From Halomonas sp. (GTDB lineage: Bacteria > Pseudomonadota > Gammaproteobacteria > Pseudomonadales > Halomonadaceae): a stretch of DNA of 64,000 bases. The position numbers and the translations under genes are program-made. This document shows positions 17,345-31,087 of this stretch, one piece after another. The DNA is taken from NCBI GenBank assembly GCA_020832045.1, contig JAFIFK010000082.1, positions 27,072 through 91,071 of the forward strand, in the 5' to 3' direction. Position 1 is the stretch's first letter; every line of letters begins with the position of its first letter. The notes under the pieces were generated by a model. The model did not search any database. It had not been told where the DNA came from and was given only the letters and a program-made list of their open reading frames with translations.

Positions 17345-17420
17345 GGGTCGTTAGCTCAGTTGGTAGAGCAGTTGGCTTTTAACCAATTGGTCGTAGGTTC
17401 GAATCCTACACGACCCACCA
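17345..17420 (+). tRNA. tRNA-Lys(UUU)
   Basis: 76-nt cloverleaf GGGTCGT...ACGACCC-ACCA; anticodon loop CTTTTAA; T-loop TTCGAAT. Confidence 0.98.
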
Positions 17421-17451: not shown

Positions 17452-17527
17452 GGGTCGTTAGCTCAGTTGGTAGAGCAGTTGGCTTTTAACCAATTGGTCG
17501 TAGGTTCGAATCCTACACGACCCACCA
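17452..17527 (+). tRNA. tRNA-Lys(UUU), identical second copy
   Basis: Exact 76-nt repeat of 17345-17420 after a 31-nt spacer. Confidence 0.98.
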
Positions 17528-17534
17528 GACACGC

Positions 17535-17569
17535 AAAAACGCCCTAGCCGCTCAGGTTAGGGCGTTTTT
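17535..17569. terminator. Bidirectional terminator after the tRNA pair; contains the cgs stop codon
   Basis: AAAAACGCCCTAGCC-GCTCA-GGTTAGGGCGTTTTT. Confidence 0.85.
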
Positions 17570-20500
17570 CGTTGTCTCTCTCGTGTAGGCCAAGTTGTAT
17601 TTCGACATAATGCCCCTGGCCATCATCACGGAGTGTGATAACCGTGCTGGCCTGAAGGACTCCGTCGACGTGGGTGACCGGCGGGTGCTTCGCGGGGTCG
17701 ACCGCCTGCCGGATCGTAATGCAGTAGGTGGTGCCATGATAGCGATAGTGCAGCCGGACATGTGGCCACGCAGCGGGCAGACAGGGGGTTATTGTCAGCG
17801 TATTGCCAGCTTGATGAAGTCCAAGCAGCGACTCGCTGATGAGACGATACATCCAGCCTGCCGAACCGGTATACCAGCTCCAGCCACCTCGTCCAACGTG
17901 GGGCGGTGCAGAATAGATATCGGCCGCCATCACGTAGGGCTCTAGGCGATATCTGGCCATGTCAGCGTCAGATCGTGAATGATTAATGGGATTGAGCATG
18001 TCAGTCAGCTGCCAGGCTCGCTCGCGCTGGCCGAGACGGGCATACGCCATTGCCGCCCAGATGGCAGCGTGAGTGTACTGCCCACCATTCTCCCGTACCC
18101 CTGGCACATAGTCGCGAATATAGCCGGGAGAGGGAGTAGCCTTATTGAAAGGCGGGGTGAGCAATTGGACCAGTTGTGATTTGGGATGGACCAAGTGAGT
18201 GAAGACTGCTTCCATCGCCCGCTCGGCCCGCTGCGGGTCGCCGGCGCCCGAGAGCACCGCCCAGCTTTGCGAGATCGAGTCGATGCGGCATTCGCTGCCT
18301 GCCGCCGTCCCTAGCGGGGTGCCGTCGTCGAAGTAGGCGCGGCGATACCAGTCGCCGTCCCAGGCGTTCAGGTTCAGACTGGTGCTCAGCGTTCGGCGAG
18401 ATGTCCGGCAGCTTTCCGCAGTGTCGGCATCACCGTAGCGGTCCGCCAACTGACTGAACTCCTCGAGTACCTGGCACAGGAAAAAACCCAGCCAGACACT
18501 TTCGCCTCGACCCTTGATGCCTACCCGGTTCATTCCATCATTCCAATCACCCGAGCCCATCAGCGGCAGGCCGTGCTCACCGAGCCGCAGCCCGTGGCGA
18601 AGGGCGAGCAGAGCGTGCTGGTACAGGCTGGCCTCGCCGAGGGTACGACTGGGAAGGTCGTAGTAGGCCTCATCGTCTTCGCCAACGGCGCGTCCCTCGA
18701 GGAAGGCTACCGGCGTATCGAGAACGTCGACGTCATCGGTCAGCCTCACATAGCGACACAGCGCTAGCGGCAGCCACAGATAGTCGTCGGAACAGCGTGT
18801 CCGCACGCCGCGGCCTTGCGGTGGGTGCCACCAGTGCTGCACGTCCCCTTCGCGGAATTGACGGCTGGCACTCAGCAGTAACTGGTCGCGCAGGCGCTCG
18901 GGCATGGCATGCGCCAACGCCATGCAGTCCTGCAACTGATCACGAAAGCCGAAGGCGCCGCCGGACTGGTAGTAGCCGCTGCGCGCCCAGAGGCGACAGG
19001 CCAGGGTCTGGTAGAGCAACCAGCCGTTGGCCATGACGTTCAGCGCTGGGTCAGGGGTCTCGATCTGCAGTGCGCCAAGGGTGTGCCGCCAGTGTGCCTT
19101 TACGTTATCCAGGGCCTGGCTGGCGGCTCCTGTTAAGCGGTAACGCTGAATCAAGGCTTTGGCCTGCTCGCTGTTACTGCCCACGCCGAGCCGAAAGATC
19201 ACGTCACGATTTTCGTCTGGTGCCAGTGAGAGCTTGATCTGCAATGCAGCGCATGGGTCGATACCGGCCCCAACCGTGCCGGAAAGATGGGTCCGCTCCA
19301 GGGCGGCGGGTCGCTGCATGCTGCCATTACGACCGATAAACTCCTGGCGATCGCCGCTCAGCGTTCGCGTAGGGTCGTCCACATCGAAAAAGGCCACCTG
19401 CTCGCTCAGTTCGCGGTGAAAGACGTTGCGAGCCAATAGGGCGCCACTTGCGGCGGCGACTTCGGTGGTCACATGCATGGCCGACTTGGTAGGGAGATCG
19501 CCGAGAACCCATTCGACGTAGCCGGTCACCGCCAAATGGCGCGCACGCGCCGACCGGTTGTGAATCTTGAGCACCGAAAACTTGATGCTGGCATCGAGCG
19601 CAACGTAGACCCAGAGTTGCGTGCTGATGCCGTCCTGCTCCGATTCGAAGACGCTGTAGCCAAAACCATGGCGCACCAGGTAGTGGGAGTCGCTGTGCAC
19701 GGGAAGGGGAGTGGGAGACCAGAGATGGCCGTTCTCCTCGTCACGCAGATAGATCGCTTCGCCGCAGGTGTCGCTGACCGGATCGTTGTGCCATGGCGTC
19801 AGTCGATTTTCATGAGCATTGACCCCCCAGGTGTAGCTGCCACCACTTTCCGATATCACACAGCCGAAATCGGGGTTGGCAATGACATTGACCCAAGGCG
19901 CGGGAGTTCGCTGACCAGGGGAAAGCTGGATGACATACTCCTGGCCATCGGCGCTGAATCCCCCCAGCGGATTGCTCAGGATCAACTCCTCAGACGCCGA
20001 CGGCGCGAGGACTGGCGTGGGCCGCCGGTTGTTCTTCAGTGCCAGAGCGGGAGGTCTCGCGTCGTGTCGCTGGCGCTGGTCGAGCTGCTCTTCCAGGCTG
20101 CCGTGGCTATCGATGATGATGGCCCTGGCCACTGCCTGGAACATCAGCCGGTCCTCGTCGGCGATGTGTTCCAGAGGCCGCACGAAAATACCGCCGGGGC
20201 GATCTATCTGACTGGCGCCACTGCCCGAGGCGATCAGCCCCAATATCTGTTCCTGCAGTTGCTGGCGGTAGACGGCATACTCCTCGTTCCAGATCACCAG
20301 GTCGACGGCGAGGCCCTGCAGGCGCCAGTGAGCATGCGCTTGGATGAGTTGGCGTACGAGAGCGAGGCTGGCACTGCTACCCACCCGCAGCAGCACTATT
20401 GGCAGGTCGCCGGAGATGGCGTAGCTCCACAGCGCTGATTGCCCGCGGCGGTTGGCAGCGACAATGGCAGGTTCGGCGCGCAGTGCAGGGTGCGCATAGA

Positions 20501-23500
20501 TGACTGCACTGGCCAGTCTTGCATGCAGTTGCGCATCGGCTTCACTGGCATCGAGCTGCTCGAGGACCACCTGGCGATGGGTCCAGGTCAGCTCAAAGAC
20601 ACGATCACTCAGGTGACGATCCTGGTACTTGGCGATCAAGCACTCGGCTTCGGTGCGCGAGCCTGCAACTCCTGTCACCAGGTCGAGTGTTACGGCGTGA
20701 TGGGGTTCGATACTGAGGCATCGCCGGATGGCGGTGATCGGATCGAGAACGGCTCCGGCATGTCCGGACAGGTCGCCGGGGAGATCCATGGCCGAGGGTG
20801 ACGAGGCATCTCGACAACGACCGATAAAAGCCAGCCGGTCGGTTTCGTAAGAGGCAGCAGGGCTGGGGATGTCACGAACCACAAGAAGCTGGAACATCCA
20901 TGCCGAGCTCTCTTCCGGGGCCTGGGAGCGACGGTGACAGAGAATCGCGCTATGGGGTGCAATGATTTCGGTCTGTACGAATAGATTGCTGAAGGCGGGA
21001 TGCATGGCATCAGTAACAGCGGGCGCGATGACCACCTCGCTGTAGCTGGTAACCTCGATCTCGCGTCGCTTTGCAGTGTGGTTGGTCAGGCGTATTCGGC
21101 GCAACTCGATATCATCTTCGGGCGATACGGCAATCTCGGTATAGGTCTCCAGCTCGCCATTGCCCAGGTTGTCACGGCGCCTGTACTCGGCGCGTCCCTC
21201 GGCAAAGATCGCCTGGTAGTGGGTGCTGGGAGTGAGTGTCGGCTGGAAGGCGTTAGACCAGTAATGGCCGCTGTCGAGGTCACGCAGGTAGCAGAAGGTG
21301 CCATAGTGGTCGCGCGTCGGATCCTCTCGCCACCGCGTGACTGCGAGGTCTCGCCAGCGGCTATAGCCACCGCCGGCATTAGTGACCATGACGTGATAGC
21401 GACCATTCGATAGCAGTTGCACCGCCGGGGTCGGGGAATCGGCGCTGTCGAACACCCGTATGGGCGGATCGCTGCGGTCGCTTGCGGTGCTTACGTCCGC
21501 CAAGCGCGCAACATGAGTGAATAGCGCGCTGGCCCGCGGGATACGTTCCTGCAGGAGAAGTAGCGCAGCCTGCACATGGCGATCGGCACAGAAGCGGCGC
21601 TGCATGGGCTGGTCCAGCAGCAGGTAAGCCAGGGCCAGTAGGCTCATGCCCTGGTGGTGTGCCATGAAGGAACGCACCAAGGTCTTGTGCGACCCGCGGC
21701 GTTGGCGCGCAGGGCTGTAGTCGACGGCTTCGAACAGCCCGAACTTGCCCATTACTCCCTCATGTGCCAGGCGTTGCAAGTTCTGGCAGGCAGCGGTGGG
21801 CGCGATCATCAGCGCCATCACCGAGGCGTAGGGGGCGATGACCAGGTCCTCGGCCAGGCCACGCTTCAGCCCCAGGCCGGGGGCGCCAAAGGCTCGGTAT
21901 TGATAGTTGAGCTTGGCATCGACGGTATTGTAGGCGGACTCGGAAATCCCCCATGGCACGCCGCGCTGCTTGCCATAGTCGATTTGACGAGCAATGGCGG
22001 CGTGAGATGTCTGATCGAGCAGGGTATTGGGATAGGTCGGCATCACCAGCATTGGCATCAGGTATTCGAACATCGAGCCACTCCATGACAGCAGTACCGG
22101 CTTGCCGCCAGCGCGGGTCAGCAGTCGGCCCAGGCTGAACCAGCTCTCCTTGGGTAACTGTCCAAGGGCGATGCCCACGAAGCTGCTGAGCCTTGACTCC
22201 GATGCAAGCAGGTCGTAATAGCCGCTGTCGAGTCGCTCTTCGGTGACGTTATAGCCGATGGCGAGAAGGTGCTTGGTGCGGTCGAAGAGAAAGCCATACT
22301 CCACCTGGGCGAAGTCGATGCAGGTGGCGGCGAGTTGCTCGAGAGTGGCGATACGCTGCTGGGCTTGCCCCTTGGCCTGGTCGATTGCAGCACGCAGCGG
22401 GTCGGTCGGGGTATCAGCCATGCTGTGCTGTGGCGGCGCCGGTAGGAGAGCATCGAGCCTGGCGACATCGCGAAGCGTAGGCATCGCAAGTGCTGCAACG
22501 TCCTTGCCGAATGATGAGTCGTCCAGCATGGAAGGCTGGGTCAGCCAGGGTGCCAGTTCGTCGAGTTCGGCGAGCATGGCTTGAGTCTGCTGAATCAAGC
22601 TTTGCGCCCACTGATGGGCGTTTTCCTCCAGCAGTGGAGACTGCGGTTGCGCGCCGACCTCAGGCTGCACGGTCGTGGCTAGCGGGCTCAGGGCGTCGGC
22701 CAGAAGGGCTCCGGCGCCGCATAGTCGGGTCAGTGCATGATGCCAGGCCGTAAGAGGGTCCTGCTGGGTCGGGCAAGAGGTGAGCAGAACGTGGCGATAG
22801 GCGTCCAGAGGGGCACGAACGGTGTCCCCACCACACTCCTCGATGACCGACAACGTATCGCGCAGCCCTTCCCAGCAGCGTTGAGGCAATATCGGCGCAT
22901 CGGCGACTTCGAGCAAGCCACGACTCAGCGTCAGCAGGTGGCCCGACAGATTGCCGCTATCGACACTTGAGACATAGTGTGGCGGCAGTGGCTTCAGGCT
23001 TTGGGTGTCGTACCAGTTGTAGAAATGGCCACGGTAGCGGGGCAGGATCGCGAGAGTGTCCAGGGTCTGTTGGCTACGTGTCATGAGGCCCTTGGCGCTG
23101 AGATAGCCGAAATCATAGGCTGCCAGGTTGGCCAGCAGGGCCATCCCGATGTTGGTAGGCGAGGTGCGATGGGCTAGTTCGATCTGGCGGTACGCCTGAA
23201 TGTTATCGGGTGGCAGCCAGTGGTCCTCGGCGTTGAGCGTCTGTTCGAAGAACGCCCAGGTGCGCCTGGCCAGATGTTGCAGAAATCGGGTTTGCACGGC
23301 ATCCAGCGGCCAGGGATGAACTGTTTTTGGCTGGCTCAGCCACCAGGCCACACCCGGGGCGATGCTCCACAGCACCAGGAAGGGAGCTGCGGCGAATAGC
23401 GCGAGTGGCTGGTGGAAGGTCAGCAAGAGGGTTACGCCGCCGGACAGCGCAGGGGCGACCCACATCTGCTTGAACATCTCATACAGGCCCTTGATGCCAT

Positions 23501-26396
23501 TGCGTGGGGTGACCGCTCGGTAAGCACTCGAGGGAACCCACTCCAGCAAGTGCTGATGGCTGACATGGCGTCGCCATAACGTGCGCAGAATTGCGTCAAG
23601 ATGGATATAAGCTTCGTACGGTAGGCAGCTGAGCTGGAAGCCGAGTTGCGCAGTGCGTCCTGCCAATTCATGCGCCATGCAGGCCAGGTGCTGCCCTGGG
23701 GGCCGCTCTGAGGGCTTGTTGAATAGCCCAGGCATCGCTTCGCAGATCATCGGGATCAGCAGCAGTGACACAGCGGCGATGGTCCATATCCAGGCCGTGG
23801 CAGGCTGCGTCCACCCTACTAACAGCAGTGTCGTCAAGGCGATAGGGAAGAGGCTGCGTCGCAAGTTGTCCAGCAGCTTCCAGCGTGACAGCAGCGATAG
23901 GGCATTGGCGGTCTGGCTGCCTGACGTGCTGAGTCCCGTGGGGGGATGTCGACCCAACCAGCCGATGAGTTGCCAGTCGCCGCGTATCCAGCGGTGGCGG
24001 CGTTTAGCATCATCGAGGTAATGGCTCGGATGATCCTCATAGAGAAAAATATCGCTCACCAGGCCGGAGCGGGCATAGCAGCCCTCAAGCAGGTCATGGC
24101 TGAGAATGAGGTTCTCGGGAAAGCGCCTGCCTATCGCGAGTTCGAAGGCATCGACATCGTAAATGCCCTTACCGATATATGAGCCTTCGTCGAACAGATC
24201 CTGATAGACGTTGGAATTGGCCTGGGTATAAGGATCGATGCCTGCCTCGCCACCGAACAGCCTTGCATAGCGCGAACGGTTAGCGCCTTCCAGGCTGGCT
24301 TCGATGCTGGGCTGAAGAATCCCGTGGCCAGCCGTTACCAGACCCGTCAGGGGAGCGTGATGAGGGCGGTTGAGAGGGTGGCTCATGGTGCCTACCAACT
24401 GACGAGCGGTATCGCGGGGGAGCTGAGTGTCACTGTCCAAGGTAATGACATAGGCCACTTCGCGCAGCACCGAGAGATCACCGACAATCAGCGAGAAGCG
24501 CTGTTGGCCGTTGGTCTCCGGTTTGCTGCGTAGTAGGTCGTTGAGATCCGAGAGCTTGCCTCGCTTGCGCTCGTGCCCCATCCAGCGGCATTCCTTAGCG
24601 TTCCAGCGCCGCTCGCGGTGAAATAGGTAGAAGGGTGTCGCTGTACCGCCGAGCTCGCGCCACTGCTTGGCATAGGTGGCATTCAGGCGAGTGATGCCGT
24701 CATGGGCCAGCGTCAGCAGGGCGCCGTCGTCGGGTAGTATGGCCTCCAGTGCGTCGCTGAAATCGGTCAGCAGGGCATGATGTATATGGGCATCCAGGTT
24801 GGCGAGAAAGCGCACTTCGAGAGACTCCAGCAAGCATTCGATGCTTGCCGGGTCCGTCAACAGGGTCGGCGTTACGATCAGAGTACGGCAATCCGAGGAG
24901 ATGCCGTTTTTGATCTCCATGCGTGGTAGTGTGCGTGGCGCCTGTAAAAGTGTCATCAGCCGGTTGGTAAGCGTTACCGCAGCCTGGCTGGAAACCAGCG
25001 GCGTCAGCATGACGATGATTGCCATCCACCATAGCGGGGGGGAGTGAGGGAGGTGCGTCCAGGCAGTCATCAGCAGGCCAGCGCTTATCAGCAGCGTCAA
25101 GCCCCCTATCCCACCGAGATAGAGGGGCAGGCCCTGTTGCTGGAGTACTCTGTTGAGTCGCTGTCGCAGTGAGCGATGCGCCTTGGCCTGTCGAATCAGC
25201 TCAGCCAAGCCGCAGTCGACGAGATAGTAGCCCACATGTCGAGTACGCTTGGAGTCTGAGGCCGATTGGCTGTTTGATTTAGCGAGCCCAAGTGTCAGGG
25301 CCGCCACCTCACTTTCACTAAGTGGAGATTGAGCGGCAAGGTTTTCCACCACATGCCGATAGCGGTCACGGGTGGCAAAGTCCATGCGCGGGTAGATACC
25401 GCTGGGATCGTCGCGCAAGATCTGTTCGACCGCACTCTGTGATTCAACAAAGGCTTGCCAATCGATGGCGGCAATCATTCTGAGGCTACCAATGCTGTTG
25501 CTTACCGAAACCTGGTCGGATGCCTGCTGCTGATTGGCAATCAATACGTGTTGTTCGATGGTGGTGCCAGAATCGGACAACCGTTGCTCTACCCATGACA
25601 ACGGTAGGGAGAGAGCCGGACCGCGTCCCTGCAAACGTCGTGACAGTACGGCCACGAACTCGCTACTCATTAGTGGCTTCGAGCGGGCCATGTCGGCGAC
25701 CTGCAGAATCAGGCTCTTGGGGTCCTGCTCGGCCGTGGCGATCATGCGTTCCGCCCAGGCCTCTGCCAGTAGTCGCTCGCTGAGACCTGCATCAATACGG
25801 TCAGATACCTGACGAAGATTCTCGATTAGCGCCAGACGTAGCATGATGGGGATCGCCCAAAGCTCACCCAGCGTCAGCGTGACGTTACGCTGATAAGCCG
25901 TCACGAAGCGGCTCAAGTTGTCGAAGGCCAGGTGACCGTCGCCGTGAGCGATGGCTTCCATGGCAATGTCGTGAACGCGTGGGCGGCCTGCGGAAGGTCC
26001 GCTTGACAGTCTGGGTAAGGACGCACTGTAGCCAGGGGGCAGATGCCGCTTAGCGGTCAGCATTTGCTCTTCTAGCAGGTGGAAATTGTCCAGCAGTCCT
26101 TCGCCAGCAGGTGAAATACGTTGCTGTTCAGCTACTGCCCCTGTTAACCGATTGCAGCCAGCAACTAGCGCCTGCTCATTGGCACGGAGACGCGGAAGCA
26201 GTTGATCCGGTGCATTTCCTGTCGCTAGGTGATGGCTGTTGGCTAGATCTTCTCCATGCGCCTCCATCTGAGCGGCGCTGAGCAACTCCGCACGAGGGAG
26301 AGAAGATGCCTCGTCGTTAGATACAGGCTGGTGTCGAGTATTAAGCCACTGTCGCAGGCGATGGCCGTGCTCACGGAAGGCGGACAAGAGAGCCAA
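17544..26396 (-). CDS. cgs: Cyclic beta-1,2-glucan synthase (Cgs/ChvB/NdvB type; GT84 + cyclization domain + GH94-like phosphorylase domain)
   Basis: 2950 aa. VITLDSDTQL, SHDLLEG and RRHRWIRGDWQ glycosyltransferase motifs; ESRLSSF...SWSGSMFEYLMP...WGISESAYN middle domain; SGGAFGFRDQLQD and GDWNDG GH94 motifs; internal TM clusters. Start codon uncertain (TTG). Confidence 0.92.
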   Translation of the reverse strand: MALLSAFREHGHRLRQWLNTRHQPVSNDEASSLPRAELLSAAQMEAHGEDLANSHHLATGNAPDQLLPRLRANEQALVAGCNRLTGAVAEQQRISPAGEGLLDNFHLLEEQMLTAKRHLPPGYSASLPRLSSGPSAGRPRVHDIAMEAIAHGDGHLAFDNLSRFVTAYQRNVTLTLGELWAIPIMLRLALIENLRQVSDRIDAGLSERLLAEAWAERMIATAEQDPKSLILQVADMARSKPLMSSEFVAVLSRRLQGRGPALSLPLSWVEQRLSDSGTTIEQHVLIANQQQASDQVSVSNSIGSLRMIAAIDWQAFVESQSAVEQILRDDPSGIYPRMDFATRDRYRHVVENLAAQSPLSESEVAALTLGLAKSNSQSASDSKRTRHVGYYLVDCGLAELIRQAKAHRSLRQRLNRVLQQQGLPLYLGGIGGLTLLISAGLLMTAWTHLPHSPPLWWMAIIVMLTPLVSSQAAVTLTNRLMTLLQAPRTLPRMEIKNGISSDCRTLIVTPTLLTDPASIECLLESLEVRFLANLDAHIHHALLTDFSDALEAILPDDGALLTLAHDGITRLNATYAKQWRELGGTATPFYLFHRERRWNAKECRWMGHERKRGKLSDLNDLLRSKPETNGQQRFSLIVGDLSVLREVAYVITLDSDTQLPRDTARQLVGTMSHPLNRPHHAPLTGLVTAGHGILQPSIEASLEGANRSRYARLFGGEAGIDPYTQANSNVYQDLFDEGSYIGKGIYDVDAFELAIGRRFPENLILSHDLLEGCYARSGLVSDIFLYEDHPSHYLDDAKRRHRWIRGDWQLIGWLGRHPPTGLSTSGSQTANALSLLSRWKLLDNLRRSLFPIALTTLLLVGWTQPATAWIWTIAAVSLLLIPMICEAMPGLFNKPSERPPGQHLACMAHELAGRTAQLGFQLSCLPYEAYIHLDAILRTLWRRHVSHQHLLEWVPSSAYRAVTPRNGIKGLYEMFKQMWVAPALSGGVTLLLTFHQPLALFAAAPFLVLWSIAPGVAWWLSQPKTVHPWPLDAVQTRFLQHLARRTWAFFEQTLNAEDHWLPPDNIQAYRQIELAHRTSPTNIGMALLANLAAYDFGYLSAKGLMTRSQQTLDTLAILPRYRGHFYNWYDTQSLKPLPPHYVSSVDSGNLSGHLLTLSRGLLEVADAPILPQRCWEGLRDTLSVIEECGGDTVRAPLDAYRHVLLTSCPTQQDPLTAWHHALTRLCGAGALLADALSPLATTVQPEVGAQPQSPLLEENAHQWAQSLIQQTQAMLAELDELAPWLTQPSMLDDSSFGKDVAALAMPTLRDVARLDALLPAPPQHSMADTPTDPLRAAIDQAKGQAQQRIATLEQLAATCIDFAQVEYGFLFDRTKHLLAIGYNVTEERLDSGYYDLLASESRLSSFVGIALGQLPKESWFSLGRLLTRAGGKPVLLSWSGSMFEYLMPMLVMPTYPNTLLDQTSHAAIARQIDYGKQRGVPWGISESAYNTVDAKLNYQYRAFGAPGLGLKRGLAEDLVIAPYASVMALMIAPTAACQNLQRLAHEGVMGKFGLFEAVDYSPARQRRGSHKTLVRSFMAHHQGMSLLALAYLLLDQPMQRRFCADRHVQAALLLLQERIPRASALFTHVARLADVSTASDRSDPPIRVFDSADSPTPAVQLLSNGRYHVMVTNAGGGYSRWRDLAVTRWREDPTRDHYGTFCYLRDLDSGHYWSNAFQPTLTPSTHYQAIFAEGRAEYRRRDNLGNGELETYTEIAVSPEDDIELRRIRLTNHTAKRREIEVTSYSEVVIAPAVTDAMHPAFSNLFVQTEIIAPHSAILCHRRSQAPEESSAWMFQLLVVRDIPSPAASYETDRLAFIGRCRDASSPSAMDLPGDLSGHAGAVLDPITAIRRCLSIEPHHAVTLDLVTGVAGSRTEAECLIAKYQDRHLSDRVFELTWTHRQVVLEQLDASEADAQLHARLASAVIYAHPALRAEPAIVAANRRGQSALWSYAISGDLPIVLLRVGSSASLALVRQLIQAHAHWRLQGLAVDLVIWNEEYAVYRQQLQEQILGLIASGSGASQIDRPGGIFVRPLEHIADEDRLMFQAVARAIIIDSHGSLEEQLDQRQRHDARPPALALKNNRRPTPVLAPSASEELILSNPLGGFSADGQEYVIQLSPGQRTPAPWVNVIANPDFGCVISESGGSYTWGVNAHENRLTPWHNDPVSDTCGEAIYLRDEENGHLWSPTPLPVHSDSHYLVRHGFGYSVFESEQDGISTQLWVYVALDASIKFSVLKIHNRSARARHLAVTGYVEWVLGDLPTKSAMHVTTEVAAASGALLARNVFHRELSEQVAFFDVDDPTRTLSGDRQEFIGRNGSMQRPAALERTHLSGTVGAGIDPCAALQIKLSLAPDENRDVIFRLGVGSNSEQAKALIQRYRLTGAASQALDNVKAHWRHTLGALQIETPDPALNVMANGWLLYQTLACRLWARSGYYQSGGAFGFRDQLQDCMALAHAMPERLRDQLLLSASRQFREGDVQHWWHPPQGRGVRTRCSDDYLWLPLALCRYVRLTDDVDVLDTPVAFLEGRAVGEDDEAYYDLPSRTLGEASLYQHALLALRHGLRLGEHGLPLMGSGDWNDGMNRVGIKGRGESVWLGFFLCQVLEEFSQLADRYGDADTAESCRTSRRTLSTSLNLNAWDGDWYRRAYFDDGTPLGTAAGSECRIDSISQSWAVLSGAGDPQRAERAMEAVFTHLVHPKSQLVQLLTPPFNKATPSPGYIRDYVPGVRENGGQYTHAAIWAAMAYARLGQRERAWQLTDMLNPINHSRSDADMARYRLEPYVMAADIYSAPPHVGRGGWSWYTGSAGWMYRLISESLLGLHQAGNTLTITPCLPAAWPHVRLHYRYHGTTYCITIRQAVDPAKHPPVTHVDGVLQASTVITLRDDGQGHYVEIQLGLHERDNEKRPNLSG

Positions 26397-26405
26397 GGCG
26401 AGCGC

Positions 26406-26480
26406 CTAGCGCAAGCCGAGGACAGACAGTACCACCAGCACGATGACTACCGCGCCGACGATCCATACGATATTGTTCAT
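26406..26480 (-). CDS. 24-aa hydrophobic micropeptide (MNNIVWIVGAVVIVLVVLSVLGLR)
   Basis: Manual translation; AGGTGG RBS upstream; a single TM helix; ends 9 bp before the cgs start. Confidence 0.75.
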   Translation of the reverse strand: MNNIVWIVGAVVIVLVVLSVLGLR

Positions 26481-26571
26481 GTGATCCACCTATGTCAGCT
26501 GGGCCTGCTTTGCATCCCATAGGGATGCGGCAGACGGTGACGGAATAATAGATTGCGAGAGGGATTCCATC

Positions 26572-26587
26572 GGTGTGCTAGCCAACC
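26572..26587 (-). promoter_or_regulatory. Candidate Crp-family box A (GGTTGGCTAGCACACC) with -10 TATTAT at 26545-26550
   Basis: Exactly 21 nt between box and hexamer; upstream of micropeptide 26406-26480 and cgs. Confidence 0.6.
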
Positions 26588-26601
26588 CACAACAGATTGA
26601 A

Positions 26602-26676
26602 TTAGCGATTGGCGAACAACATCAGAGCGATGAAGAGGAGGATGATGGCAACCGAGATCGCTGCATTCTTGAGCAT
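26602..26676 (-). CDS. 24-aa hydrophobic micropeptide (MLKNAAISVAIILLFIALMLFANR)
   Basis: Manual translation; GGAGG RBS 11 nt upstream; a single TM helix with basic ends. Confidence 0.65.
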   Translation of the reverse strand: MLKNAAISVAIILLFIALMLFANR

Positions 26677-26814
26677 CAGGAAGATCGCCTCCAATCTGCC
26701 GATACGCGTTCTATGGGGTGGCGCCCCCTCCTTGCGGCGCGCAGTGCAACTTACCTGTATAGGCACTTCCTTCGCCACACCTGGAGAATGTTATACGGTA
26801 GGGCATATGAAAAC

Positions 26815-26830
26815 TGTGCGCTACCGAACG
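26815..26830 (-). promoter_or_regulatory. Candidate Crp-family box B (CGTTCGGTAGCGCACA) with -10 TAACAT at 26788-26793
   Basis: 21-nt spacing; upstream of micropeptide 26602-26676. Confidence 0.68.
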
Positions 26831-30131: not shown

Positions 30132-30147
30132 TGTGCGTTAGCGTACA
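30132..30147. promoter_or_regulatory. Candidate Crp-family box E (TGTGCGTTAGCGTACA) shared by divergent promoters
   Basis: Near-perfect palindrome. Minus-strand -10 TAGCCT at 30105-30110 (21-nt gap, toward the DGC); plus-strand CTATACT at 30167-30173 (20-nt gap to TATACT, toward crp1). Confidence 0.75.
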
Positions 30148-30355: not shown

Positions 30356-31087
30356 ATGTCGGCACCACAATCGGCACCACAATATGACCCACGAAACCAG
30401 CTGCTGGCGCTGCTGCCGGAGGACGAGTTGGCGCGCCTGCAGCCTCACCTCGAGCGTGTGGCGTTGCCGCTGGGAAAGTCGCTGAGTGAATCAGGGGGAG
30501 TGATGCACCATGTCTACTTTCCTCTGGATGCCATTGTGTCTCTGTTGTGCGTGATGGAAAACGGTGCCTCTACGGAAATCGCGGTGGTGGGCAATGAAGG
30601 CATAGTCGGCGTGTCCTTGTTCATGGGGGGGGAAACGACACCGAGCAGGGCCATCGTGCAGAGTGCTGGCGAGGCCTACCGACTCAAGGGGCAACGAATC
30701 AAGGACGAGTTCTACCGCGCCGGCACGATGCAGCGGCTGCTGCTTCGCTATACCCAAGCGCTGTTGACGCAAATGGCACAGACGGCAGTGTGCAACCGCC
30801 ACCACTCGGTTGATCAGCAGCTTTGTCGTTGGTTGCTACTGAGTCTTGATCGGTTGCCGGGTGATCAGCTCATCATGACCCAGGAGCTGATTGCGAACAT
30901 GCTGGGGGTGCGCCGAGAAGGTGTCACGGAATCCGCGGGTAAACTCCAGCGTGCGGGACTGATTGCCTACCACCGCGGACATATCACGGTTATTGACCGG
31001 CCCGGTCTCGAGGCGAGGGTGTGCGAGTGTTATGCGGTTGTGAAGCGAGAGTATGATCGCTTGCTGGGCCCTGAGGCCTTGCTCTAG
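30356..31087 (+). CDS. Crp/Fnr-family transcriptional regulator (copy 1)
   Basis: Cyclic-nucleotide-binding-like beta-roll (VYFPLDAIVS, EIAVVGNEG), HTH TQELIANMLGVRREGVTESAGKL, C-terminal CECY; AGGAGG RBS. Confidence 0.92.
   Translation: MSAPQSAPQYDPRNQLLALLPEDELARLQPHLERVALPLGKSLSESGGVMHHVYFPLDAIVSLLCVMENGASTEIAVVGNEGIVGVSLFMGGETTPSRAIVQSAGEAYRLKGQRIKDEFYRAGTMQRLLLRYTQALLTQMAQTAVCNRHHSVDQQLCRWLLLSLDRLPGDQLIMTQELIANMLGVRREGVTESAGKLQRAGLIAYHRGHITVIDRPGLEARVCECYAVVKREYDRLLGPEALL

What the first reader, a model, noticed from the sequence alone, without database searches (positions are those of the whole stretch)
26406..26480. Unannotated 24-aa membrane micropeptide directly upstream of cgs
Seen: MNNIVWIVGAVVIVLVVLSVLGLR, with an RBS and its own box-A promoter, ending 9 bp before the TTG start of the 2950-aa synthase; cgs has no clear RBS of its own. 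Inference: the peptide is translationally coupled to cgs and may be a small membrane partner or regulator of the synthase. The sequence looks like a real single-pass small protein, not a chance ORF.
Basis: partly seen in the sequence, partly recalled or inferred. Interest (0 to 1): 0.65.

Follow-up and report, generated by a model that had tools for sequence, protein, structure and literature searches.

The report
Conserved 24-residue membrane protein feeding cgs
The tiny gene is real, but it belongs to a nearly invariant 24-residue membrane-protein family found in about half of the Halomonas relatives searched, most of which lack the glucan synthase; the synthase gene was probably captured behind it and borrows its expression signals.

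Summary
The ORF exists as described, on the minus strand: ATG 26480, TAG 26408-26406, AGGTGGA ribosome-binding site, then 9 nt in frame to the TTG of a 2950-aa cyclic beta-1,2-glucan synthase (Cgs).

It is a real gene. The same 24-aa protein occurs in 185 of 342 Halomonadaceae genomes and 13 of 400 other Gammaproteobacteria. It is always 24 aa and under strong purifying selection (pN/pS about 0.1). It matches no curated family, and I found no paper.

It is not Cgs-specific.
- At least 113 carrier genomes have no Cgs.
- Identical peptides occur in Cgs-free genomes.
- This Cgs type is in only 6 of 342 genomes and groups with non-Halomonas sequences.
- Where a second canonical copy exists, the cgs-linked copy drifts (pN/pS about 0.5), and it is lost in H. 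urumqiensis.

Translational coupling is plausible but untested.
- In all six loci the cgs start column holds a start codon (TTG/ATG/GTG).
- None has a usable Shine-Dalgarno (-2.1 to -2.5 kcal/mol).
- No terminator separates the genes.

The claimed "own box-A promoter" is degenerate here (4 of 12 mismatches). A better Crp-like box and a conserved 74-nt leader lie upstream, before a second, diverged tandem copy (ORF2).

The parts
26406..26480 (-). 24-aa small membrane protein gene, type A of the family (MNNIVWIVGAVVIVLVVLSVLGLR plus TAG)
   Evidence: Searches give the ORF. Searches show the family in 185 of 342 genomes, with an identical peptide in L117-L119. One search gives pN/pS 0.11 for canonical copies and 0.04 for the G000/G031 pair.
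26485..26491 (-). Shine-Dalgarno-like AGGTGGA, 4 nt before the ATG
   Evidence: One search gives the sequence. One search gives -5.8 kcal/mol against the anti-SD (family median -7.1).
26397..26405 (-). 9-nt in-frame spacer GCGCTCGCC between the peptide stop and the cgs start. It has no SD.
   Evidence: Searches show 7-8 of 9 nt conserved in relatives. One search gives -2.4 kcal/mol.
17544..26396 (-). cgs, a 2950-aa cyclic beta-1,2-glucan synthase with a TTG start
   Evidence: One search gives the Pfam domains: GH94 supersandwich 5e-165, GH94 catalytic 4e-114, Glycoamylase and GT2_3. Searches show this type in 6 of 342 Halomonadaceae and grouping with Rudaea and Bacteroidota sequences.
26574..26589 (-). 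'Box A': a degenerate remnant of the Crp-like box TGTRCG-N4-CGYACA, 109 nt before the peptide ATG
   Evidence: One search gives 4 mismatches. One search shows good boxes at 108-111 nt in L113, L114, L115 and L143.
26602..26676 (-). ORF2 (MLKNAAISVAIILLFIALMLFANR), probably a diverged tandem paralogue at the canonical position behind the box and leader
   Evidence: It lacks an intact start or frame in L120, L130 and L142.
26713..26786 (-). Conserved 74-nt leader element (model R1) that follows the box in regulon promoters
   Evidence: One search gives E 4e-12 in the window's own genome. Searches give the structure, copy number and fixed spacing.
26815..26830 (-). 'Box B': a Crp-like box with 2 mismatches (minus strand CGTTCGGTAGCGCACA). 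It is the likely promoter site for ORF2, the peptide and cgs.
   Evidence: Spacing to R1 is about 44-46 nt, as in other copies.

Best explanation
The ORF encodes a genuine 24-residue, single-helix membrane protein. It belongs to an unannotated, nearly invariant family. Type A is MNNIV(W/Y)IVGAVVIVLVVLSVLGLR and type B is MRNIIYIIGLIVVVLFILSMLGLR. The family is widespread in Halomonadaceae and sporadic in other Gammaproteobacteria.

Type A is normally a free-standing gene of a Crp/Fnr-box regulon. It sits behind the box TGTRCG-N4-CGYACA and, in most loci (20 of 24 checked), a conserved leader. Its function does not depend on Cgs.

In this genome and five relatives, a separately acquired cyclic-glucan synthase gene sits directly behind a copy of the small gene. 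The gap is the stop plus 9 nt, in the same frame. cgs has a TTG start and no Shine-Dalgarno.

Inferred: cgs is co-transcribed from the small gene's promoter(s). Here that is mainly the box-B and leader promoter upstream of ORF2. Ribosomes that finish the 24-codon ORF then reinitiate 9 nt downstream and translate cgs (termination-reinitiation coupling). On this reading the small ORF works for cgs as an expression adaptor that puts it under the regulon, not as a subunit.

Shown: the anatomy, the conservation, the selection pattern and the distribution. Inferred: co-transcription, coupling and membrane insertion.
For: Real gene:
- The profile finds the family in 185 of 342 family genomes and 13 of 400 other class genomes.
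- It is 24 aa in every free-standing copy checked, with SD motifs upstream.
- pN/pS is 0.11 for 25 canonical A loci and 0.06 for 9 B loci, at pS 0.44-0.58.

Independent of Cgs:
- Cgs of any type is in 72 of 342 genomes and the window type in 6.
- The identical peptide is in G033, G086 and G118, which have no Cgs match.
- No hydrophobic ORF ends just before the start in the other 24 Halomonadaceae loci or 70 distant cgs loci.
- G030 has the same tandem cassette without cgs.
- G129 has the same OMP-peptide synteny without cgs.

Redundancy pattern:
- The cgs-linked copy is canonical where it is the only A copy (G000, G031).
- It is diverged or truncated where another A copy exists (G069, G127, G101; pN/pS 0.52).
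- It is destroyed in G144.

Capture:
- In the Cgs tree the six sequences form one clade (100/100).
- That clade is nested with Rudaea and Bacteroidota sequences, apart from the main Halomonadaceae clade.

Coupling anatomy:
- The start column is TTG/TTG/ATG/TTG/GTG in the relatives.
- SD energies are -2.1 to -2.5 in all six loci, against -6.5 to -10.8 for candidate starts of other Halomonadaceae cgs genes.
- There is no room for a terminator.

Regulon:
- 20 of 24 canonical A loci have a box with 0-1 mismatch, 172-207 nt from the ATG.
- Box B and leader R1 lie upstream in the window.
- G069, G127 and G144 keep 1-2-mismatch boxes before the cgs-linked copy.
Against: - There are no expression data.
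- Box A is degenerate in this genome, and no sigma-70 consensus promoter was found.
- H. urumqiensis keeps an intact cgs without the upstream ORF, so coupling is not strictly required. An in-frame GTG with a better SD may substitute there.
- The fold of the junction RNA is no more stable than shuffled sequence (z = -1.1), so there is no evidence that structure masks the TTG.
- Divergence of the linked copies could be adaptation to Cgs rather than relaxation.
- The counts come from related genomes and are not independent.
Confidence: 0.6

Rival explanations
1. Dedicated partner. The peptide is a small membrane subunit or regulator that binds the transmembrane region of Cgs. It is encoded next to it for stoichiometric co-production, as KdpF is for Kdp or CydX for cytochrome bd.
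For: - The two genes are immediately adjacent and conserved as a unit in 5 of 6 genomes despite differing upstream flanks.
- Linked copies in G069, G127 and G101 share derived residues (MKNIL...). This could reflect co-adaptation.
Against: - The family is present without any Cgs in at least 113 genomes.
- Identical sequences occur in Cgs-free genomes.
- The other 24 Halomonadaceae loci and 70 distant cgs loci have no hydrophobic ORF ending just before the start.
- Linked copies show relaxed constraint and truncation, and one is lost while cgs stays intact.
Confidence: 0.1
2. Mere neighbours. The small gene is expressed for its own purpose, and cgs is translated independently from its TTG or transcribed from its own promoter. 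The 9-nt junction is a historical accident of insertion.
For: - G144 retains cgs without the uORF.
- No junction structure was detected.
- A single ancestral junction explains its conservation without invoking function.
Against: - All six loci lack an SD and use a weak or variable start codon exactly 9-15 nt after the upstream stop.
- The 9-nt spacer is 7-8 of 9 nt conserved.
- In every locus a regulon box lies upstream of the small ORF, and none lies between it and cgs.
Confidence: 0.25
3. Type-I-toxin-like peptide. The family is a membrane-depolarising hydrophobic toxin whose translation is held in check by the long structured leader or an antisense RNA. Its link to cgs is incidental.
For: - It is short and extremely hydrophobic, with 1-4 copies per genome and a long conserved 5' leader before type-A copies.
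Against: - Near-invariance across genera and stable synteny are unlike typical type I toxins.
- Type B has a strong SD and no leader or box.
- No antisense gene was seen, and there is no PADLOC or NCBIfam toxin hit.
- The leader is shared with many non-toxin genes.
Confidence: 0.07

Closest known systems
Small accessory membrane proteins encoded beside their complex (KdpF, CydX, AcrZ, MgtS); named from my own knowledge
   Same: Under 50 aa, with one hydrophobic helix and its own SD. Here it lies directly upstream of a large membrane enzyme gene.
   Different: The family occurs mostly without the neighbouring enzyme. No sequence similarity to any curated family was found. No partner is identified.
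Termination-reinitiation translational coupling in bacterial operons; named from my own knowledge
   Same: The stop-to-start distance is short (9 nt). The downstream gene has a non-ATG start and no SD. The arrangement is conserved in relatives.
   Different: The upstream cistron is a pre-existing independent gene behind which a foreign gene was placed. Dependence of cgs translation on it is untested.
Cgs/NdvB/ChvB cyclic beta-1,2-glucan synthases of Rhizobiales, with Cgt and Cgm as known partners; named from my own knowledge
   Same: The downstream gene has the same three-module architecture.
   Different: No micropeptide partner is described for those systems. A search for papers holding both 'cyclic glucan synthase' and 'small membrane protein' found none. 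This Cgs lineage is a minor, probably transferred one in Halomonas.
E. coli small membrane proteins YohP (27 aa) and YoaJ (24 aa); recalled from memory only
   Same: Similar size, and an M-K/N-x-I-L/V-W/Y start followed by a single hydrophobic helix.
   Different: Homology was not tested. There is no profile hit, and the resemblance may only reflect hydrophobic composition.

Membership tests
Bacterial small single-pass membrane protein (generic class) | ORF under 50 aa with one hydrophobic helix of about 20 residues | tested here: met
   It is 24 aa. Residues 4-23 are all hydrophobic or small. The best 16-residue Kyte-Doolittle mean is 3.1.
Bacterial small single-pass membrane protein (generic class) | Protein-level purifying selection across species | tested here: met
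   pN/pS is 0.11 for type A and 0.06 for type B, at pS 0.44-0.58. Peptides are identical across genomes with different flanks.
Bacterial small single-pass membrane protein (generic class) | Shown to be translated and inserted in the membrane | not testable with these tools
No Ribo-seq or proteomics data were available.
Dedicated accessory subunit of Cgs | Co-occurrence with cgs across genomes | tested here: not met
   185 genomes carry the peptide, 72 carry any Cgs and 6 carry this Cgs type. Other cgs loci have no hydrophobic ORF ending just before the start.
Dedicated accessory subunit of Cgs | Constraint maintained on cgs-linked copies | tested here: not met
   pN/pS is 0.52 where a second copy exists. 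Copies are truncated to 22 aa in G127 and G101, and the copy is lost in G144.
Dedicated accessory subunit of Cgs | Physical interaction with Cgs | not testable with these tools
   No multimer prediction was available, and the peptide is below the 30-aa limit of the structure tool.
Translationally coupled gene pair (termination-reinitiation) | Same transcript, with a short stop-to-start distance and no terminator between | tested here: met
   The gap is 9 nt (15 nt in L003 and L005). The only hairpin the terminator scan flagged (6 pairs, 3 G-C) spans the stop and the start, and 9 nt leaves no room for a terminator.
Translationally coupled gene pair (termination-reinitiation) | Downstream cistron lacks its own efficient initiation signals | tested here: met
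   Starts are TTG or GTG, with ATG in one locus. SD energies are -2.1 to -2.5 kcal/mol in six loci.
Translationally coupled gene pair (termination-reinitiation) | Downstream translation depends on upstream translation | not testable with these tools
   This needs reporter fusions with start and stop mutants.
   Canonical type-A loci: 20 of 24 have a box with 0-1 mismatch at 172-207 nt from the ATG. Window box A has 4 mismatches at 109 nt. Box B has 2 mismatches and lies upstream of ORF2 with leader R1.
Type I toxin | Cognate antisense or overlapping sRNA, and toxicity on expression | not tested
   No antisense search was done. There were no toxin-family hits.
Any curated protein or RNA family (Pfam, NCBIfam, PHROGs, PADLOC, PDB, Rfam) | Significant profile match | tested here: not met
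   The best E-values are 0.17-0.34, all chance-level.

The most novel reading that the evidence does not exclude
The 24-residue protein is a conserved effector of an unstudied Crp/Fnr envelope regulon. It acts directly on membrane-embedded envelope-polysaccharide machinery. In the Cgs-bearing lineage the linked copy (MKNIL... variants) has been recruited as a true Cgs-modulating subunit as well as a translational adaptor.
Probability: 0.1. Interest if true: 0.7.

Novelty: new member of a known kind. Interest (0 to 1): 0.42.

Why it matters
The result adds a very short (24 aa), almost invariant and essentially unannotated membrane-protein family to the bacterial small proteome. Only 2 of 18 variants are in a 15-billion-protein collection, and neither has a name. 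That is a clean target for small-protein genetics in Halomonas, a genus used in biotechnology.

It also gives a worked example of how a horizontally acquired giant gene can be wired into a host regulon. The gene landed 9 nt behind a small resident gene and appears to use that gene's promoter and ribosomes. This warns against reading 'micropeptide next to enzyme' as 'enzyme subunit'.

Tried and rejected
- The structure prediction, representative search and contig look-up tools need at least 30 aa, so I did not use them.
- Pfam, NCBIfam, PADLOC, PHROGs, PDB and Rfam gave only chance-level hits.
- tblastn against plasmids found nothing, though the low-complexity filter may hide matches.
- Literature searches for the peptide strings, and for papers holding both 'cyclic glucan synthase' and 'small membrane protein', found nothing. 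The Halomonas cyclic-glucan (ndvB) search returned only two unrelated reviews.
- I looked for an 'empty site' by comparing G030 with G031. Only the cassette is shared, so there is no clean insertion boundary.
- The fold of the junction RNA is not significant.
- GC content shows no sharp anomaly for cgs.
- I rejected reading the leader as a 39-aa ORF that starts in the box. Indels in the variable hairpin break the frame, and several loci lack a start codon.
- I rejected sigma-54 and ECF promoter readings of the leader by inspection.

Full report
**1. What is in the window**

The finding lies on the minus strand. An ATG at 26480 opens a 24-codon frame that ends at TAG 26408-26406 and encodes MNNIVWIVGAVVIVLVVLSVLGLR. 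AGGTGGA sits 4 nt upstream (26491-26485). Its calculated pairing with the 16S anti-SD is -5.8 kcal/mol.

Nine bases after the stop (GCGCTCGCC), and in the same reading frame, comes the TTG at 26396 of a 2950-aa ORF (17544-26396). Pfam identifies this ORF as a cyclic beta-1,2-glucan synthase. It has two GH94 domains (5e-165 and 4e-114), a glucoamylase-like domain and a GT2 domain.

A GTG three codons upstream of the ATG lies inside the SD and is not conserved. The ATG is universal in homologues.

**2. The organism and the Cgs start**

The Cgs N-terminus finds 76-81% identical proteins in five Halomonas genomes:
- H. heilongjiangensis (L001/G069)
- Halomonas sp. ML-15 (L002/G031)
- Halomonas sp. 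RA08-2 (L003/G127)
- H. urumqiensis (L004/G144)
- the MAG Kmv22 (L005/G101)

Aligned, the column of the window's TTG holds TTG, TTG, ATG, TTG and GTG. Protein similarity begins right there, so this is the real start.

In all six loci the 22 nt before it pair only weakly with the anti-SD (-2.1 to -2.5 kcal/mol). Candidate starts of the other Halomonadaceae cgs genes reach -6.5 to -10.8.

**3. The small ORF is a real gene, and a widespread one**

Four of the five relatives carry a homologous ORF in the same place. Many third-position changes separate them.

The window's own genome has a second copy elsewhere (G000 contig 24, 51129-51200). It encodes MRNIIYIIGLIVVVLFILSMLGLR behind AAGGAG.

A profile of six sequences then found the family widely:
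- 185 of 342 Halomonadaceae genomes, with 1-4 copies each.
- 13 of 400 other sampled Gammaproteobacteria.

Every free-standing copy I read is exactly 24 aa. Nearly all end in LGLR and most have an SD-like motif.

There are two near-invariant types:
- Type A is MNNIV(W/Y)IVGAVVIVLVVLSVLGLR. The window's exact peptide recurs in G086, G118 and G033.
- Type B is MRNIIYIIGLIVVVLFILSMLGLR.

Nei-Gojobori counts give pN/pS of 0.11 for 25 free-standing type-A loci and 0.06 for 9 type-B loci, at pS 0.44-0.58. This is strong purifying selection on the protein.

The family matches nothing in Pfam, NCBIfam, PHROGs, PADLOC or the PDB. Only 2 of 18 exact variants exist, unnamed, in the 15-billion-protein collection. 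I found no paper.

**4. It is not a Cgs-specific partner**

- Distribution. Any Cgs is detectable in 72 of 342 family genomes, and the window's type in only 6. At least 113 peptide-bearing genomes therefore lack Cgs. Genomes with the identical peptide (G033, G086, G118) have no Cgs match.
- Other cgs loci. None of the other 24 Halomonadaceae cgs loci or 70 distant cgs loci has a hydrophobic ORF ending just before the start. The only upstream hydrophobic ORFs (L007, L009) end 119-132 nt away.
- Cassette without cgs. G030 carries the same tandem small-ORF cassette, with a W-type peptide and a TAG stop, between unrelated genes and without cgs.
- Synteny without cgs. G129 has the same outer-membrane-protein gene (83% nt identity) followed by a canonical peptide gene and then a different downstream gene.

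The per-genome pattern is telling:

| Genome | Another type-A copy? | State of the cgs-linked copy |
|---|---|---|
| G000 | no | canonical |
| G031 | no | one substitution |
| G069 | yes | MKNILWIIGAVVIVLVVLSILNLR |
| G127 | yes | MKNILRVISAVVVMTAVLSVLN, 22 aa |
| G101 | yes | MKNILWVIVTTVVMLAVLSVLG, 22 aa |
| G144 | yes | destroyed |

The three redundant linked copies give pN/pS of 0.52.

In G144 a deletion removed the SD, the ATG and the first codons, and the TAG became CAG. What remains is an in-frame remnant in front of an intact cgs.

The simplest reading is that selection acts on the cell having one good type-A copy, not on the Cgs-linked copy as such. Adaptation of the linked copies to Cgs is not excluded, but the loss in G144 argues against necessity.

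**5. How cgs came to sit there**

I built a maximum-likelihood tree of the N-terminal 400 residues from 84 sequences.
- The six Halomonas sequences form one clade (100/100).
- This clade is sister to a Rudaea sequence (95/85) and sits inside a group with Bacteroidota and Spirochaetota sequences (99/97).
- It is separate from the main Halomonadaceae Cgs clade (24 rows, 100/100), which is only 38-40% identical.

The tree is unrooted and covers one domain. Even so, it supports a separate acquisition.

GC content shows no sharp anomaly, so the acquisition is not recent.

The junction (stop, conserved spacer, start) is shared by all six loci, so the capture happened once. Two tRNA-Lys genes abut the 3' end of cgs. 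G031 shares the flanks on both sides.

**6. Promoter context**

From its box E (30132-30147, TGTGCGTTAGCGTACA) I derived the pattern TGTRCG-N4-CGYACA and tested it on the peptide family.

- 20 of 24 free-standing type-A loci carry the box with 0-1 mismatch at 172-207 nt from the ATG.
- A short-leader subclass, including the cgs-linked copies of G069 and G127, carries it at 108-111 nt.
- Type B has none.

In the window, the positional homologue is 'box A' (26589-26574), 109 nt from the ATG. It has 4 of 12 mismatches. The claimed own promoter is therefore doubtful here.

A better box (box B, 26815-26830, 2 mismatches) lies upstream. It is followed at the usual spacing by a conserved 74-nt element (26713-26786; E 4e-12 with my model R1). 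Then comes ORF2 (26676-26602, MLKNAAISVAIILLFIALMLFANR).

ORF2 occupies exactly the place that the canonical peptide occupies behind this leader. It has the same length and the same terminal R. It has lost its start or frame in G031, G030 and G101. I read it as a diverging tandem paralogue.

No terminator-like site separates ORF2, the peptide and cgs. The likely unit is box B, leader, ORF2, (box A), peptide, cgs.

The two Crp-family genes and a PAS-GGDEF gene lie just upstream. In G116 a type-A gene sits beside a homologue of the first Crp-family gene.

**7. Mechanism proposed**

Shown:
- the anatomy
- an SD-less cgs with a non-ATG start in five of the six loci (ATG in L003)
- the 9-15-nt in-frame gap
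- the absence of any box or terminator between the two ORFs
- regulon boxes upstream in every locus

Inferred: cgs is co-transcribed with the small gene, and it is translated mainly by ribosomes that terminate at TAG 26406 and reinitiate at TTG 26396.

The junction RNA shows no significant structure (z = -1.1). I therefore favour simple reinitiation over unmasking of a structured start.

In G144, where the uORF start is gone, the stop has also gone. In-frame GTG codons with better SD pairing (-4.8 to -6.2 kcal/mol) lie 36-42 nt upstream. This fits a need for upstream initiation but does not prove it.

My confidence that the small protein is real and Cgs-independent is about 0.9. My confidence in co-transcription plus coupling is about 0.55.

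**8. Rivals**

- Dedicated partner: 0.1.
- Mere neighbours without coupling: 0.25.
- Type-I-toxin-like peptide: 0.07.

Evidence for and against each is in the Rival explanations section of this report.

**9. Novelty and score**

Small single-pass membrane proteins and translational coupling are both known kinds. The family itself appears undescribed and is strikingly conserved.

The finding is useful mainly for two reasons:
- as a new small-protein family tied to an unstudied Crp/Fnr regulon
- as an example of promoter and ribosome capture by an acquired gene

Interest: 0.42.

Noticed in passing
window 26713-26786 (-); also L165-L184: A conserved 74-nt element (model R1) starts a fixed ~46 nt after the start of the Crp-like box in 19 of 20 copies checked. 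It is multi-copy: 20 of 151 sampled Halomonadaceae genomes have it, with up to 8 copies per genome. It precedes unrelated genes. It has two helices with some covariation. Its invariant GUACAGGGAGUU resembles the CsrA SELEX consensus RUACARGGAUGU (PMC4347634), and a hairpin loop carries ACGGA. There is no Rfam match. It may be a regulon-wide 5' leader bound by CsrA/RsmA.
   Followed up: partly
window 26602-26676 (-): ORF2 (MLKNAAISVAIILLFIALMLFANR) sits where the canonical 24-aa gene sits behind box B and the leader. It has the same length. It is frameshifted, extended or start-less in G031, G030 and G101. It is probably a decaying tandem paralogue, not an unrelated second micropeptide.
   Followed up: partly
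G000 contig 24, 51129-51200 (L112 1501-1575): A type-B paralogue, MRNIIYIIGLIVVVLFILSMLGLR, with a strong AAGGAG SD. It lies between a divergent 307-aa polytopic membrane protein gene and a convergent 376-aa gene. The upstream neighbour recurs beside type-B copies in at least three other genomes. It has no Crp-like box.
   Followed up: partly
window 17345-17420 and 17452-17527 (+): Two tRNA-Lys(UUU) genes lie immediately past the cgs stop codon and converge on it. They are 100% identical to those in G031. This may be an integration hot spot for the cgs acquisition.
   Followed up: no
L004 (H. urumqiensis), about 81 nt upstream of the cgs TTG: The small ORF's 5' part is deleted and its TAG is now CAG. 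The remnant VVIVLSGLGLRQAPT is therefore in frame with cgs, and GTG codons there have better SD pairing than the TTG. This may give an N-terminally extended Cgs.
   Followed up: partly
L128, L129, L132-L134, L137, L141, L144, L146, L149: In many genomes the canonical type-A gene is followed 92-108 nt downstream (measured in three loci) by a gene for a ~440-aa secreted protein with a Sel1 repeat and a PG_binding_1 domain. Other loci keep only a remnant of its start. In this window's lineage cgs occupies that downstream position.
   Followed up: partly
window 17544-26396 compared with L087-L110: Halomonadaceae carry two Cgs lineages. The common one is in about 66 genomes. The window's is rare (6 genomes) and groups with Rudaea and Bacteroidota sequences.
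   Followed up: yes
L114 (G116) 1666-2128: A type-A peptide gene lies next to a homologue (74.6% nt identity) of the window's first Crp-family gene (30605-31067). This links the small gene to the regulator in another genome.
   Followed up: no
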